Shown here: positions 2,731-50,247 of the stretch, one piece after another | Layout: each line of letters opens with the position of its first letter | How positions within the stretch are numbered: the stretch's first letter is position 1 | From: Escherichia coli | GTDB lineage: Bacteria > Pseudomonadota > Gammaproteobacteria > Enterobacterales > Enterobacteriaceae | Assembly (NCBI RefSeq): GCF_013122565.1 | Contig: NZ_CP053258.1 | DNA: 64,000 bases | Reading direction: 5' to 3' (one strand) | Made by a program: the position numbers and the translations under genes | Notes under the pieces: generated by a model | Told to the model about the DNA's origin: nothing | What the model saw: the letters and a program-made list of their open reading frames with translations, nothing else | The model's database searches: none

Positions 2731-2748
2731 TTGCATAAAGGATGCCAG
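2731..2748 (-). promoter_or_regulatory. candidate sigma-54 (-24/-12) promoter for hyf operon
   Basis: minus strand reads CTGGCATCCTTTATGCAA (GG-N10-GC spacing) about 45 nt upstream of hyfA ATG; hyf operon is known to be sigma-54 dependent. Confidence 0.5.
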
Positions 2749-2942
2749 TCTGATTAATTTAATATATTCAATAAGTTATGAATTAACTGGATTCTGAACG
2801 GTACAAAAATGATGGTCATTAACGTTCAGCAAAAAATGGATTCGACACCCGTGTCGCAGGGGAAAGCGAGAATGTGATCTTGATCACGATAAGTGAAGTG
2901 TGCTGACCGCAAGCGCAGCCAGCACGGAATGGAGCAAAGTAA

Positions 2943-13153: not shown

Positions 13154-16100
13154 TTATTCCGGGCGCGGCTTCAGCGGGAAGCGGCGGCGCACCAGCACAA
13201 AGAACAGCGGCACGAAGTAAATAGCCAGAATAGTAGCCGAAATCATCCCGCCCATTACGCCAGTACCCACCGCATGCTGACCACCGGAACCGGCACCCGT
13301 GCTGGTTGCCATTGGCAATACGCCGAAGATAAATGCCAGCGAGGTCATCAGAATCGGGCGTAAACGCTGACGGCAGGCGTGGAGCGTCGCTTCAAACAGG
13401 TCGTGGCCTTTTTGGTTCATCTCGTTAGCAAACTCGACGATCAGGATGGCGTTTTTCGCCGATAAACCAATGACCGTTAACAGGCCCACCTGGAAGTAAA
13501 CGTCGTTTTCCAGCCCGCGCATCCAGGTTGCCAGCAGCGCGCCGATAACCCCCAGCGGCACGACCAACATTACCGAGAACGGCACCGACCAGCTTTCATA
13601 CAATGCCGCCAGACACAGGAATACCACCAGCAAGGAAATGGCGTACAGCGCCGGAGCCTGCGCGCCGGAAAGCCGCTCCTGATACGACATCGCCGTCCAC
13701 TCCAGACCAAAGCCGTTTGGCAACTGCTTCACTAACGATTCCATAATATCCATCGCCGTACCGGTACTGACCCCCGGTGCGGCTTCCCCAACAATCTCAA
13801 CCGCAGAATAACCGTTATAGCGTTCCAGACGCGGCGAGCCTGTCTCCCAGCGTGAGGTCGCGAAAGCAGAGAAGGGCACCATGCCGCCATCTTTATTTCG
13901 GACATACCAGAGATTGATGTCATCTGGCAGCATGCGATACGGCGCAGCTGCCTGCACATAGACTTTCTTCACGCGACCGCGATCCATAAAGTCATTCACA
14001 TAGCTCGAACCCCAGGCGGTTTGCAGTGTGTCGTTAATATCGTCGATAGCAACGCCCAGCGCCTGAGCTTTACGCTGGTCGATATCAATCTGCAACTGCG
14101 GACTGTCGTCGAGGCCGTTATGGCGCACACGGGTTAGCTCCGGGTTTTCCGCCGCCAGCGCCAGCAACTGGTTACGTGCTGCCATCAGCGCATCGTGACC
14201 TGCTCCAGCGTGGTCCTGCAACTCCATATCAAAACCTGCAGAACTACCAAGACCGCTAATTGCTGGCGGGCTGCTGGCGATAACGCGAGCTTCTTTAATT
14301 TGGTTAAACGCCTTTGTTGCACGCTCGATAATGGCAAACGAGGTGCCGGTCTTACTGTCGCGTTCGCTCCAGTCTTTCAGGCGGATAAACATTCGCGCCA
14401 CGTTTTGCCCGTTGCCCCCAGGGCCAGAGCCAACGGTGGCAAACACCGACATGATGTTGTCTTTTTCATGGGTGAAGTAATATTTCTCGATTTGCTCAAC
14501 GACTTTCAGGGTCTGTTGTTGGGTTGAACCGCTGGGCAATTGTACCGAGGTAGTAAACATGCCACGGTCTTCCAGCGGTAAGAACGACGTCGGCAAACGC
14601 AGGAACAGGAACACCATGCCGCCAAGCAGCAGGACATAAATCACAATCCAGCGCAGGCTACGGTGGAGAATTTTCGCCACCCCTTTTTCGTAGCGTTCGG
14701 CGTTGCGGTTAAACATCTGGTTAAACCAGGCAAAAAAGCCTTTTTGCCCGTGATGCTCACCTTTTTTCAGTGGCTTAAGTAGCGTGGCACACAGAGCCGG
14801 AGTGAGGATCATCGCTACCAGTACTGACAGCACCATCGCCGCAACAATGGTAATAGAGAACTGGCGATAGATGGCACCGGTGGTGCCGCCGAAGAAGGCC
14901 ATTGGTACAAATACCGCCGAAAGCACCATCGCAATCCCGACCAGTGCCCCCTGGATCTGCCCCATCGATTTACGTGTGGCTTCGCGAGGAGTGAGTCCTT
15001 CCTCACTCATAATACGTTCGACGTTTTCCACCACCACGATGGCATCATCCACCAGCAGACCGATCGCCAGCACCATCGCGAACATGGTTAAGGTGTTGAC
15101 GCTGTAACCGAAGGCGTAAAGTACGGAGAAGGTTCCCATCAACACCACCGGCACGGCGATAGTGGGTATCAGCGTGGCGCGGAAGTTTTGCAGGAACAGA
15201 TACATAACGAGGAAAACCAGAGCGATAGCTTCCAGCAGCGTTTTCACCACGTCTTCAATGGAGGCTTTAACAAACGAGGTGGTTTCATATGCCACCTTGT
15301 ATTCCAGTCCGTGCGGGAAATACTGCGCCAGCTCGTCGAGACGATTGAGCACCAGCTCCGCTGTCGCCATTTCGTTAGCGCCGGAGGCCAGTTTTACCCC
15401 CAGCCCGGAGGCTGGCTTACCATTGAAGCGGCTAAGATAATCGTATTTCTCCGCCCCCATTTCGACGGTGGCGACATCGCCCAGCCTTACCTCTGAGCCG
15501 TCCTGATTCACCCGCAAGGTGATATCGCGGAACTGTTCTGGTGTTTGCAGCAGTGACTGGGCGTTAATGGTGGCGTTGAGCGCCTGCTTATCGACGGAAG
15601 GTGTACCCCCAAGTTGTCCAACCGCAATCTGCGCGTTCTGTGACTCAATGGCATCAGTGACATCTTTAGCCGTCATCTGGAAACTGTTGAGTTTCGCCGG
15701 GTCCAGCCAGATACGCATGGAATATTGCGAACCATAGGCATCGATATCCCCGACGCCATTCACGCGGCTTAACGGGTCCTGAATATTACTGGCAACATAA
15801 TCAGCAATATCCTGTTTATCCATCGAACCATCGGTAGAGACGAAGGCAATGGTCAGAATGTTGGTATCGCCGGTTTTACGCACCGTCACGCCCTGATTTT
15901 GCACCGCCTGCGGTAACTTTCGCATGGCTGATTGCAGCTGGTTTTGTACTTGCTGCACGGCTTCGTCCGGATCGGTGCCTGCTTTAAAACTTAAAGTGAC
16001 AGATGCCTGACCGGTGCCACTGCTCTGAGATGACATATACATGAGATTATCGAGGCCGGTCATATTTTGCTCGATAACCTGGGTCACGGTGTTTTCCAGC

Positions 16101-16267
16101 GTCTGGGCCGATGCGCCGGGATAGTTAGCGGTCACTCGCACATTCGGTGGCGCGAGATCGGGGTATTGTTCAACGGGCAATGAAAAAATCGCCAGGGTAC
16201 CTGTCAGACACAACAGGATTGCCAGCACCCAGGCAAAAATGGGGCGATCAATAAAGAAATTCGCCAT
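13154..16267 (-). CDS. acrD: RND-family aminoglycoside/multidrug efflux pump AcrD
   Basis: 1037 aa, [21 protein letters not shown], 12-TM RND transporter architecture. Confidence 0.96.
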
Positions 16268-16337
16268 TAAAAGAGGACCTCGTGTTTCTGCGTATCGTTG
16301 TAGGCTTGACTTGCTTCACTGTAGCGGCAAGGTACGA

Positions 16338-16356
16338 GCCAATCGTGGAGAAAAAA
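16338..16356 (-). promoter_or_regulatory. BaeR box upstream of acrD
   Basis: minus strand TTTTTTCTCCACGATTGGC matches BaeR consensus TTTTTCTCCATDATTGGC; about 75 nt upstream of acrD ATG. Confidence 0.6.
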
Positions 16357-16430
16357 AGGAGTTAATGTAAATTATCATGCCCTTTTATACTGAACCTTAA
16401 GTGCAAGTATTCTTTGGTCAGTAGGAGGCA

Positions 16431-18131
16431 TTACATCAACTGACTTTCCTCACCCTCCGCAGAGCGAAAGCTAATACTCACTAACGTGCCGCCGCCGGAA
16501 GGTTGTGAAAAAGTCAGCGTCCCACCTAGCCGTTCCGCGCGTTCGCGCATGATATTCAGACCATAATGACCTTCGGGTTCTTTCGGTTCACCGATACCAA
16601 TCCCGTTATCACGGATATAAACCGTGTGATTGCCGTCCGGCGCGGTGACGCAGCTAACGGCGATTTCGCTGGCGTTGGCGTGCTTCATCGCATTCAGCAC
16701 CGCTTCGCGAATAATTTGCAACAAATGCACCTGCATTTGCGCATCCAGTGCCAGGGTTGGCAGACGGCAGTCGAGGGTCAGTTTGGCGCTGGTTTGATTT
16801 TGTAACGTATCCAGCATTTCCCTCAACGCGGAGGGGAGATCCGCCTGCTGCAGCGTCAGGCGGAAAGTAGTCAACAGCTCGCGTAACTGCCGATAAGCAT
16901 CATTCAACGCCTGGGAAAAATCGGCCATGATACTTTGTGCGGTGGCGTTATCTTCCGGTATCGAACGCTTCAGTAACGTCAACTGGATACGTAAGTAAGA
17001 AAGTACCTGAGCCAGCGAGTCGTGCAGTTCGCGGGCGATGGTCGCACGTTCTTCCATCAACAATAACTGCTGAAAATGCTTCTGCGCCTGATTAAAGTAC
17101 AAACCGCGTCCCAGCATCGATGAAACACTGTTAAGCAGCGGTTCTGATGAGGAAACGTGACTATTTTGCCAGTGCAGTTCACCGTAAACCGTCTCTTGCA
17201 TTGTCACCGGTAAAATCTGCATCGGCAATTCCGGGTTTGGTTGCCCTTCGCTAATCCGCCAGTTTTCACCGACATTTAACTCCAGATATTCAGCCGCTTC
17301 ATTGTCGCGAACAATCTGCAAAATATGGCGGAAACAATGCACATCAATCTGGCTGGTGTTCAGCGCCTGCGAACATTGATACAACACCTCCAGACGACGC
17401 TTGGCCTCGTGGAGATCGCGAGTTTTTTCTTCTACCGACGCCTCCAGCGAACGGTACAATTTATGTAGCTCGCTCGACATCTGGTTAAAGGTTTTTGCAA
17501 GCAGGCCAAGCTCATTCGGCAGGCTGGTATCCAGCGGTGGCGAGTCGAACTGCCCGTGTTCAATACGCTGACTGGCGGTAACCAGCTGATTCAGCGGGGC
17601 AACCACCTGATGGCGTATGCGGCGCAAAGTAAAAAAGACCAGCGTGAAAATACCGATGCCGCCAGCCAGGGAAATCGCCACCACCAGCAGCATTTTGCGT
17701 TCAGCGTAGTGCTGTAAAGCCAGCACGAACAGGTCTATCTGATTAACATAATTATTAATATTGGCCTGATACCACGGCAAATCACCCTTGCTGAGCCGAT
17801 TATTCATCTCCAGCCAGTTGGCATTCAGATGCGCATAGCGGGTTTTTACTGCTTCTGGCACATACCAGACGTTGAGATTGGTTAATACTGGTGAATGCAG
17901 TGCCTGCTGAAATAACTGGCGATGTGCATTGAGTTGTGGACTGCCACTTTGCAAGTCGTAGCCCAGGCGGTAACTCTGCATACGCAGCGATCCGGCAATA
18001 TTGATAGCCTCAGCGTCGCGCAAACTGCTCGCCAGAGTTAGCAGAGCGATACCCGTGGAAAGAATCGACAGCAGCACAATGTAAAAAAAGGCCCGGGCCA
18101 GACTGGCCGAGACGGGTCGTTTAACAATCAC
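16431..18131 (-). CDS. narQ: nitrate/nitrite sensor histidine kinase NarQ
   Basis: 566 aa from GTG start (MIVKRPVSASLARAFFYIVLL); HAMP plus HisKA_3 plus ATPase domains. Confidence 0.92.
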   Translation of the reverse strand: MIVKRPVSASLARAFFYIVLLSILSTGIALLTLASSLRDAEAINIAGSLRMQSYRLGYDLQSGSPQLNAHRQLFQQALHSPVLTNLNVWYVPEAVKTRYAHLNANWLEMNNRLSKGDLPWYQANINNYVNQIDLFVLALQHYAERKMLLVVAISLAGGIGIFTLVFFTLRRIRHQVVAPLNQLVTASQRIEHGQFDSPPLDTSLPNELGLLAKTFNQMSSELHKLYRSLEASVEEKTRDLHEAKRRLEVLYQCSQALNTSQIDVHCFRHILQIVRDNEAAEYLELNVGENWRISEGQPNPELPMQILPVTMQETVYGELHWQNSHVSSSEPLLNSVSSMLGRGLYFNQAQKHFQQLLLMEERATIARELHDSLAQVLSYLRIQLTLLKRSIPEDNATAQSIMADFSQALNDAYRQLRELLTTFRLTLQQADLPSALREMLDTLQNQTSAKLTLDCRLPTLALDAQMQVHLLQIIREAVLNAMKHANASEIAVSCVTAPDGNHTVYIRDNGIGIGEPKEPEGHYGLNIMRERAERLGGTLTFSQPSGGGTLVSISFRSAEGEESQLM

Positions 18132-18336
18132 ACGCGTCTTCTCCACAAAAAATCATTAATGTTCCAGTTCGCTGAAACGCAATTTAGTCAGTGATGGGAT
18201 TATTTGATCTGCCACAGTTTATAGCGAAATAGTTACTTATTCTGGGCACATGAACATTGCCGATTCCCCTGTAAGTCGGGTAATAACAACACTCATATAA
18301 AGAATAAGGTTTTTACAACCAAAAAAGAAGGTCGTT

Positions 18337-48822: not shown

Positions 48823-50247
<1,425 letters not shown>

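What the first reader, a model, noticed from the sequence alone, without database searches (positions are those of the whole stretch)
16338..16356. BaeR-box upstream of acrD
The minus strand reads TTTTTTCTCCACGATTGGC, matching the BaeR consensus TTTTTCTCCATDATTGGC, about 75 nt upstream of the acrD start. This fits envelope-stress (BaeSR) induction of this RND pump.
Basis: partly seen in the sequence, partly recalled or inferred. Interest (0 to 1): 0.2.

Follow-up and report, generated by a model that had tools for sequence, protein, structure and literature searches.

The report
Known BaeR box upstream of acrD
This is the already published binding site through which the E. coli envelope-stress regulator BaeR switches on the AcrD drug-efflux pump; it is real and deeply conserved, but it is one of the three sites the consensus was built from, so it is not new.

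Summary
TTTTTTCTCCACGATTGGC lies at 16356..16338 on the minus strand, in the narQ-acrD intergenic region of an E. coli chromosome, with 70 nt between the box and the acrD ATG at 16267. It is not a chance match: 0 of 100 shuffles reach one mismatch or fewer. TTTTTCTCCATDATTGGC is exactly the column consensus of the K-12 spy, mdtA and acrD sites, so this site helped define it.

Independent evidence still supports the site. A consensus from spy and mdtA alone finds only this site in 64 kb. All 80 acrD orthologues examined across Enterobacterales keep the core TCTCCACGWTT on the same strand. A second TTTCTCC half-site lies 11 bp upstream, and a TA(C/A)AGT -10-like hexamer keeps a fixed distance downstream. 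The published 3' GGC is not conserved.

In K-12, acrD falls about 7.5-fold in a baeR deletion under ethanol stress. The same study saw no BaeR ChIP-exo peak at acrD, so direct binding in vivo is disputed.

The most likely mechanism is that phospho-BaeR binds tandem repeats that take the place of a -35 element. This is already known and of low interest. A conserved block just upstream of the box has no identified binder.

The parts
16338..16355 (-).
   Evidence: The surrounding ~165 nt are identical to K-12 MG1655. A PWM built from 73 non-Escherichia orthologue sites scores it 28.7 bits, against 12.9 for the next best hit in the window.
16341..16351 (-). Conserved core of the box, TCTCCACGATT (promoter-proximal BaeR half-site). 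The 3' GGC at 16340..16338 is not conserved across species.
   Evidence: The core or a variant differing by one or two bases is present on the same strand upstream of acrD in 80 of 80 orthologue loci. Mean information is 1.84 bits per position in the core and 0.65 in GGC.
16358..16364 (-). Upstream half-site TAACTCC, one helical turn (11 bp) from the core TTTCTCC. It is degenerate in E. coli, where only CTCC (16361..16358) is kept.
   Evidence: The half-site PWM TTTCTCC scores positively at only one other shift within +/-40 bp, which is -11 (mean 6.55 bits, above 5 bits in 80% of 80 species). The E. coli copy scores -0.9 bits, and mdtA has TTCCTCC at -10 (9.2 bits). CTCC lies exactly 11 bp upstream in 58 of 76 species.
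16362..16381 (-). Distal conserved block GCATGATAATTTACATTAAC, which is not part of the published box. Its binder is unresolved: a third BaeR contact, CpxR, or a Fur-like site.
   Evidence: Information content is comparable to the box in both the close and the distant species groups. It matches 13 of 19 positions of the Fur consensus, which 14 of 300 shuffles also reach. There is no convincing CpxR GTAAA-N5-GTAAA match.
16318..16323 (-). Predicted -10 hexamer TACAGT, 14 nt downstream of the 18-mer. No -35-like hexamer is present, and the box occupies about -44..-27. This is inferred and not mapped.
   Evidence: TACAGT or TAAAGT is conserved at the same offset from the box (+28..+33) both in 59 species with the box about 70 nt from the ATG and in 17 species with it 95-289 nt away (1.71 and 1.60 bits per position). 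The simple sigma-70 scan finds no canonical promoter in the intergenic region.
16268..16311 (-). Predicted 5' UTR of about 44 nt, with a predicted TSS near 16311 and a GAGG Shine-Dalgarno sequence. This is inferred.
   Evidence: Derived from the position of the conserved -10-like hexamer. The ACGAGG block before the ATG is conserved. No experimental TSS was found in the held literature.
13154..16267 (-). acrD coding sequence (1037 aa), the regulated gene
16431..18146 (-). narQ (3' end at 16431), the upstream neighbour. No terminator-like hairpin lies between narQ and the box.

Best explanation
The sequence is the operator of the acrD promoter for BaeR, the OmpR/PhoB-family response regulator of the BaeSR envelope-stress system. 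Shown here: the site is a non-random, species-wide and order-wide conserved element. It shares its core with the boxes of the two other classic BaeR targets, spy and mdtA. It is organised as two TTTCTCC-type half-sites 11 bp apart, at a fixed distance from a conserved -10-like hexamer. Shown in the literature: acrD transcription depends on BaeR under inducing conditions. Inferred: on envelope stress (indole, ethanol, tungstate, Cu/Zn), BaeS phosphorylates BaeR. A head-to-tail BaeR dimer then binds the tandem repeats spanning roughly -55 to -27, where they replace the missing -35 hexamer. The dimer recruits sigma-70 RNA polymerase to an otherwise weak promoter (-10 TACAGT, no -35, no extended -10), in the manner of PhoB at pho boxes. 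CpxR is reported to enhance this activation only when BaeR is present. It or another factor may use the conserved block immediately upstream.
For: The sequence and its position are confirmed. The non-circular motif test gives a unique hit with 0.03 expected. The 60-nt promoter segment is at least 99% identical in 5315 of 5400 E. coli records. The core is present upstream of acrD in 80 of 80 Enterobacterales orthologues, on the same strand, whereas control regions match no better than 4-8 mismatches. A PWM from non-Escherichia acrD sites recovers the K-12 spy box (18.3 bits, next best -1.8) and the mdtA box. The tandem half-site at -11 is conserved. The box-to-(-10) spacing is kept even where the UTR length differs by more than 200 nt. 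BaeR ChIP-exo peaks coincide with the same motif at mdtA and flank it at spy. acrD falls 7.5-fold in a baeR deletion under ethanol stress. An acrD promoter-lux reporter needs baeS and baeR to respond to indole (PMC4780735). Purified BaeR shifts the E. amylovora acrD upstream fragment, and BaeR overexpression raises acrD 3.8-fold (PMC3915751). acrD is listed among the reported BaeR binding sites. From my own memory, with the paper not held here: Hirakawa et al. 2005, Mol Microbiol 55:1113, reported that BaeR and CpxR bind different sequences of the acrD promoter directly.
Against: ChIP-exo with 8-myc-tagged BaeR in MG1655 (5% ethanol, 30 min) reported 21 peaks, including spy and mdtA, but none near the acrD box. 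The authors classed acrD as indirectly regulated. acrD was also not in the BaeR iModulon. The Erwinia EMSA gave a smear rather than a discrete complex. The TSS, and therefore the class-II geometry, is inferred only from conservation, and no mapped TSS could be retrieved. In E. coli itself the upstream half-site is degenerate, which could mean lower affinity. The primary E. coli binding papers could not be read here.
Confidence: 0.85

Rival explanations
1. The conserved element is a real regulatory site, but BaeR does not occupy it in vivo. BaeR would then act on acrD indirectly, through another regulator or a stress-dependent change, and a different protein would bind the box, for example another OmpR-family regulator or CpxR.
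For: No BaeR ChIP-exo peak was found at acrD, while spy and mdtA were detected in the same experiment. Of the differentially expressed genes, 194 are shared between the baeR and cpxR deletions, and acrD also drops 1.9 log2 in the cpxR deletion. The BaeS H250A mutation only partly reduces the acrD promoter response.
Against: The core is the same motif that lies under or between the BaeR ChIP-exo peaks at mdtA and spy. EMSA shows BaeR binding to the orthologous Erwinia fragment. CpxR's effect on acrD is reported to depend strictly on BaeR. No CpxR consensus overlaps the box. A negative ChIP-exo result under one condition with a tagged protein is weak evidence for a low-occupancy site.
Confidence: 0.1
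2. The conservation reflects core promoter function rather than activator binding, for example a -35, UP-like or spacer element, or an A/T-tract that shapes the DNA. On this view the resemblance to the spy and mdtA boxes is incidental.
For: The box overlaps the position where a -35 element would lie relative to the conserved TACAGT. It contains a T7 tract.
Against: The core TCTCCACG bears no resemblance to TTGACA. The same 15 of 18 bases recur in two non-homologous BaeR-dependent promoters at different distances from their start codons. The 11-bp tandem repeat is typical of response-regulator operators. Basal expression does not depend on BaeR, while induced expression does.
Confidence: 0.03
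3. The match is a chance occurrence with no function.
For: With three mismatches allowed, 14 of 100 shuffles give at least one hit in 64 kb.
Against: The real site has one mismatch, which 0 of 100 shuffles reach, with an expectation of 2e-4. It is conserved in 80 of 80 orthologous promoters.
Confidence: 0.01

Closest known systems
BaeR box of the E. coli K-12 acrD promoter (Nishino, Honda & Yamaguchi 2005 consensus TTTTTCTCCATDATTGGC; RegulonDB BaeR-acrD interaction)
   Same: It is the same sequence. The 165 nt upstream of acrD in the window are identical to MG1655, and the site supplies the 'G' within the degenerate 'D' of the consensus.
   Different: Nothing differs at the site itself. The cross-species analysis refines the description. 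The conserved unit is TTTCTCCACGWTT plus a second half-site 11 bp upstream. The 3' GGC and the outer 5' T bases of the 18-mer are specific to E. coli and its close relatives.
BaeR boxes of spy (TTTTTCTCCATAATTGGC) and mdtA (TTTTTCTCCCTTATTGGC)
   Same: 15 of 18 positions are identical in all three boxes. mdtA also has a second half-site one turn (10 bp) upstream.
   Different: Both are occupied by BaeR in ChIP-exo, whereas acrD is not detected. Positions 10-12 are ACG in acrD, and this state is conserved in orthologues. The boxes end 139 nt (spy) and 53 nt (mdtA) before the start codon, against 70 nt for acrD.
PhoB pho boxes and OmpR operator sites (OmpR/PhoB-family tandem direct repeats that overlap or replace the -35 element)
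   Same: Two direct-repeat half-sites lie about one helical turn apart, immediately upstream of a -10 hexamer in a promoter that lacks a -35. The family comparison itself rests on established knowledge.
   Different: The half-site sequence differs (TTTCTCC). The geometry relative to the TSS is inferred here and not mapped.
BaeR site upstream of Erwinia amylovora acrD (Pletzer & Weingart 2014)
   Same: It is an orthologous promoter. The published motif TTCTTCACGATTACTGGC contains the same core (TCTTCACGATT) that I find in Erwiniaceae loci. BaeR binding was shown by EMSA.
   Different: The site lies 148-166 nt from the start codon, so the UTR is longer. The authors' register is shifted 2 nt relative to the cross-species alignment.

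Membership tests
BaeR regulon operator (BaeR box) | Sequence match to the BaeR box motif that is significantly above background | tested here: met
   17 of 18 positions match the published consensus, which 0 of 100 shuffles reach. 16 of 18 match a consensus built without acrD, where it is the unique hit with 0.03 expected. The PWM score is 28.7 bits, against a window mean of -45 and sd of 12.
BaeR regulon operator (BaeR box) | Located in the promoter region, in sense orientation, of a gene whose transcription depends on BaeR | tested here: met
   The position is shown. Dependence comes from the literature: acrD log2FC is -2.91 in the baeR deletion with ethanol, and reporter data agree.
BaeR regulon operator (BaeR box) | Physical binding of BaeR to this DNA | not testable with these tools
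   The literature is mixed. The site is listed as a reported binding site, and EMSA is positive for the Erwinia orthologue. ChIP-exo is negative in MG1655 under ethanol. The primary E. coli gel-shift paper is not held.
BaeR regulon operator (BaeR box) | Evolutionary conservation of the site in orthologous promoters (phylogenetic footprint) | tested here: met
   80 of 80 orthologues keep the core on the same strand. The core carries 1.84 bits per position, against 0.2-0.8 in the flanking intergenic sequence.
BaeR regulon operator (BaeR box) | Loss of induction when the box is mutated | not tested
   This needs an experiment, and no such mutant was found in the held literature.
OmpR/PhoB-type class II activator site | Tandem direct-repeat half-sites with a period of about 10-11 bp | tested here: met
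   The half-site PWM is positive only at shifts 0 and -11, and mdtA has a copy at -10. The upstream copy is weak in E. coli itself.
OmpR/PhoB-type class II activator site | The site overlaps or abuts the -35 region of the regulated promoter, which requires a known TSS | tested here: inconclusive
   A conserved -10-like TACAGT lies 14 nt downstream and no -35 is present. The TSS is not experimentally known to me.
CpxR box (GTAAA-N5-GTAAA) in the acrD promoter | Match to the tandem GTAAA consensus | tested here: not met
   The best hit has 3 of 10 specified bases mismatched and lies elsewhere in the intergenic region, which is no better than shuffles.
Fur box (for the distal conserved block) | Match to GATAATGATAATCATTATC above background | tested here: inconclusive
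   13 of 19 positions match in E. coli, and 14 of 300 shuffles do as well. By eye, 14 of 19 match in the multi-species consensus. I found no literature support for Fur control of acrD.

The most novel reading that the evidence does not exclude
The acrD promoter is a composite operator. The published 18-mer covers only the promoter-proximal BaeR half-site. The equally conserved 20-nt block just upstream (16381..16362, a GATAAT-N4-ATTAWC imperfect palindrome) would be the site of a second, so far unassigned regulator that gates BaeR activation. That regulator could be CpxR acting through a non-canonical site, or an iron-responsive Fur-like repressor, which would link AcrD's role in enterobactin export to iron status. 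Such gating could also explain why BaeR occupancy at acrD is condition-dependent and was missed by ChIP-exo.
Probability: 0.25. Interest if true: 0.35.

Novelty: already known. Interest (0 to 1): 0.1.

Why it matters
BaeSR-driven AcrD overproduction contributes to beta-lactam, temocillin, novobiocin and metal or tungstate tolerance in Enterobacterales. This operator is therefore the cis element through which baeS gain-of-function mutations raise efflux. As a finding it only re-identifies a textbook site.

The comparative analysis adds three modest points. First, the 18-mer consensus in use is over-fitted to three E. coli sequences: its 3' GGC is not conserved, and the real unit is a tandem TTTCTCC repeat. 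That matters for anyone scanning other genomes with the 18-mer. Second, deep conservation argues against the ChIP-exo-based reclassification of acrD as an indirect target. Third, a conserved neighbouring block has no assigned binder.

Tried and rejected
1. The simple sigma-70 and terminator scan of 16150..16550 found nothing. There is no canonical promoter and no narQ terminator that involves the T7 run.
2. No Rfam family matches 16150..16550 on either strand at E<=1, so this is not a known RNA element.
3. The CpxR consensus scan was no better than shuffles. I could not locate the CpxR site reported in the literature.
4. The Fur-box comparison for the distal block is marginal at 13 of 19. Literature searches for Fur control of acrD found nothing.
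5. I tried to read the primary papers: Nishino 2005 (PMC1063996, PMID 15716448), Nishino 2007 (PMC2168627) and Leblanc 2011 (PMC3133272). None is held.
6. I looked for an experimental acrD TSS. The Cappable-seq GTF is truncated when stored, and the ROSE supplement has no acrD entry.
7. The runner-up PWM hits in the window, at 48867 and 26315, lie inside long ORFs and were dismissed as chance.
8. The Yamamoto TCTNCANAA nonamer is too short to be informative in a 163-nt region, because most shuffles reach one mismatch or fewer.

Full report
**1. What is in the sequence**

Reading 16700..16000 on the minus strand shows the end of a histidine-kinase ORF with its stop at 16431. A 163-nt intergenic region follows, and then an ATG at 16267 opens a 1037-aa ORF (13154..16267). 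The 18-nt published consensus aligns to 16355..16338 with one mismatch. Seventy nucleotides separate the box from the start codon.

A 301-nt query across the region matches 5424 of 5426 complete E. coli genomes, where the flanking genes are annotated narQ and acrD. The ORF product matches the NCBIfam AcrD equivalog at 2264.8 bits, above the 1854 cut-off. The 165 nt upstream of acrD are identical to K-12 MG1655. No Rfam family, canonical sigma-70 promoter or intrinsic terminator is detected in the intergenic region.

**2. Is it more than chance, and is the argument circular?**

At one mismatch or fewer, no shuffle of the window produces a hit (0 of 100). The analytic expectation is 2e-4 per window and 0.015 per genome.

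I then fetched the K-12 spy and mdtA promoters. Their boxes are TTTTTCTCCATAATTGGC and TTTTTCTCCCTTATTGGC. Column by column, these two plus the acrD site give exactly TTTTTCTCC-A-T-D-ATTGGC. The degenerate D stands for A in spy, T in mdtA and G in acrD. The consensus is attributed to Nishino et al. 2005.

A non-circular version of the test uses a consensus from spy and mdtA only. Allowing two mismatches or fewer, it still finds this site and nothing else in 64 kb, with 0.03 expected.

**3. Independent evidence from conservation**

Within E. coli, the 60 nt at 16326..16385 are at least 99% identical in 5315 of 5400 records.

A scan of species-representative genomes with the first 300 aa of AcrD returned 80 orthologue loci with at least 80% amino-acid identity. 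They come from Escherichia, Citrobacter, Salmonella, Klebsiella, Enterobacter, Kosakonia, Cedecea, Buttiauxella, Erwinia, Pantoea, Yersinia and Serratia. Every one carries TCTCCACGWTT, or a variant differing by one or two bases, on the coding strand upstream of acrD. Control segments of the same loci match the consensus no better than 4-8 mismatches.

In 59 species the core ends 70-77 nt before the ATG. In 17 species, mostly Erwiniaceae and Yersiniaceae, it lies 95-289 nt away. A box-anchored information profile shows four conserved elements in both groups:
- a distal block, GATAATTTACATT;
- a CTCC exactly 11 bp upstream of the core CTCC;
- the core itself, at 1.84 bits per position;
- a TACAGT or TAAAGT hexamer at offsets +28..+33.

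The 3' GGC of the published 18-mer is poorly conserved (0.65 bits).

A half-site PWM (TTTCTCC) is positive at only one other shift within +/-40 bp, which is -11. There the mean is 6.55 bits, and 80% of species score above 5 bits. E. coli's own upstream copy has decayed to TAACTCC. mdtA has TTCCTCC at -10.

A PWM built only from non-Escherichia acrD sites picks out the K-12 spy box (18.3 bits, next best -1.8) and the mdtA box. In the window it scores the acrD site at 28.7 bits, against 12.9 for the runner-up, and the runner-ups lie inside long ORFs.

**4. What the literature says**

- acrD, spy and mdtABCD-baeSR form the core BaeR regulon.
- acrD is one of four reported BaeR binding sites in E. 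coli, and CpxR's effect on it is strictly BaeR-dependent.
- In MG1655, acrD drops by log2 2.91 in a baeR deletion under 5% ethanol but is unchanged without stress. It drops by log2 1.88 in a cpxR deletion.
- An acrD promoter-lux fusion needs baeS and baeR to respond to indole.
- In Erwinia amylovora, purified BaeR shifts the acrD upstream fragment, though as a smear, and BaeR overexpression raises acrD 3.8-fold.
- baeS alterations that raise acrD are linked to temocillin resistance.

Against direct binding, the same MG1655 study reported 21 BaeR ChIP-exo peaks. One peak contains the mdtA box (2153931-2153967 against the box at 2153945-62). Two peaks flank the spy box. None lies near the acrD box (K-12 2587507-24), and the authors called acrD an indirect target.

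The primary E. coli binding papers are not held. My recollection that Hirakawa et al. 2005 showed direct BaeR and CpxR binding to the acrD promoter is from memory only.

**5. Most likely mechanism**

The shown steps are the conserved tandem-repeat operator, its fixed register to a conserved -10-like hexamer, and BaeR-dependent induction.

The inferred steps are as follows. Phospho-BaeR is an OmpR/PhoB-family winged-helix regulator. It binds head-to-tail to the two half-sites, which would span about -55..-27 if TACAGT (16323..16318) is the -10. There it substitutes for the missing -35 and recruits sigma-70 RNA polymerase, as PhoB does at pho boxes. The TSS would lie near 16311, giving a 5' UTR of about 44 nt.

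The weak upstream half-site in E. coli and the ACG variant may lower affinity. Together with the single condition tested and the tagged protein, this is a plausible reason for the negative ChIP-exo result. I put direct BaeR action at about 0.85. The indirect alternative gets about 0.1, and the core-promoter-only and chance explanations together get less than 0.05.

**6. Comparison with the known, and novelty**

This is the known BaeR box of acrD and is already in the literature and in regulon databases. There are three small additions:
- a refined conserved motif with a tandem-repeat architecture;
- a conservation argument against reclassifying acrD as an indirect target;
- an unassigned conserved block upstream of the box.

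For that block, CpxR consensus matching fails, and Fur-box matching is marginal at 13 of 19, which 14 of 300 shuffles also reach. I found no literature linking Fur to acrD.

**7. Verdict**

The site is already known, and I score interest at about 0.1.

Noticed in passing
window 16362..16381 (minus strand GCATGATAATTTACATTAAC): This block lies immediately upstream of the BaeR box. It is as conserved across 76-80 Enterobacterales acrD promoters as the box itself, yet it is not part of the published motif. In most species it reads as an imperfect palindrome, GATAAT-N4-ATTATC. It matches the Fur consensus at 13 of 19 positions and has one GTAAA on the opposite strand. Its binder is unknown.
   Followed up: partly
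L003 (K-12 spy promoter) around 2745..2750 on the minus strand; window 16318..16323: In spy a TACACT hexamer lies exactly 14 nt downstream of the BaeR box. That is the same spacing as TACAGT in acrD. By my reading, the usual spy promoter (TTGACG-16-TAATCT) is about 50 nt further downstream. This could be coincidence or a second, BaeR-proximal start. mdtA does not share the spacing.
   Followed up: no
L002 636..653 (K-12 mdtA promoter): A second BaeR-like site, AATTCCTCCATTTTTCTC, overlaps the published mdtA box 10 bp upstream and scores the same (11.1 bits) with the acrD-orthologue PWM. ChIP-exo peak 2153931-2153967 covers both sites.
   Followed up: partly
L006 compared with window 16300..16365: The GTDB representative E. 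coli genome differs from the window and K-12 at a few promoter positions outside the core, for example ATTATCTCC against ATTAACTCC in the upstream half-site region and CAAGGCATGCC against CAAGTCAAGCC in the predicted 5' UTR. The ATTATC form is the one shared with most other genera.
   Followed up: no
window 16431..16356: No intrinsic-terminator-like hairpin lies between the narQ stop and the acrD promoter, so read-through from narQ into acrD is not excluded by sequence.
   Followed up: partly
PMC3915751 (E. amylovora acrD motif) compared with L064-L084: The published Erwinia motif TTCTTCACGATTACTGGC was aligned to the E. coli 18-mer in a register shifted by 2 nt, apparently to capture a GGC. 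The cross-species alignment places the conserved core as TCTTCACGATT and shows that GGC is not a conserved feature.
   Followed up: partly
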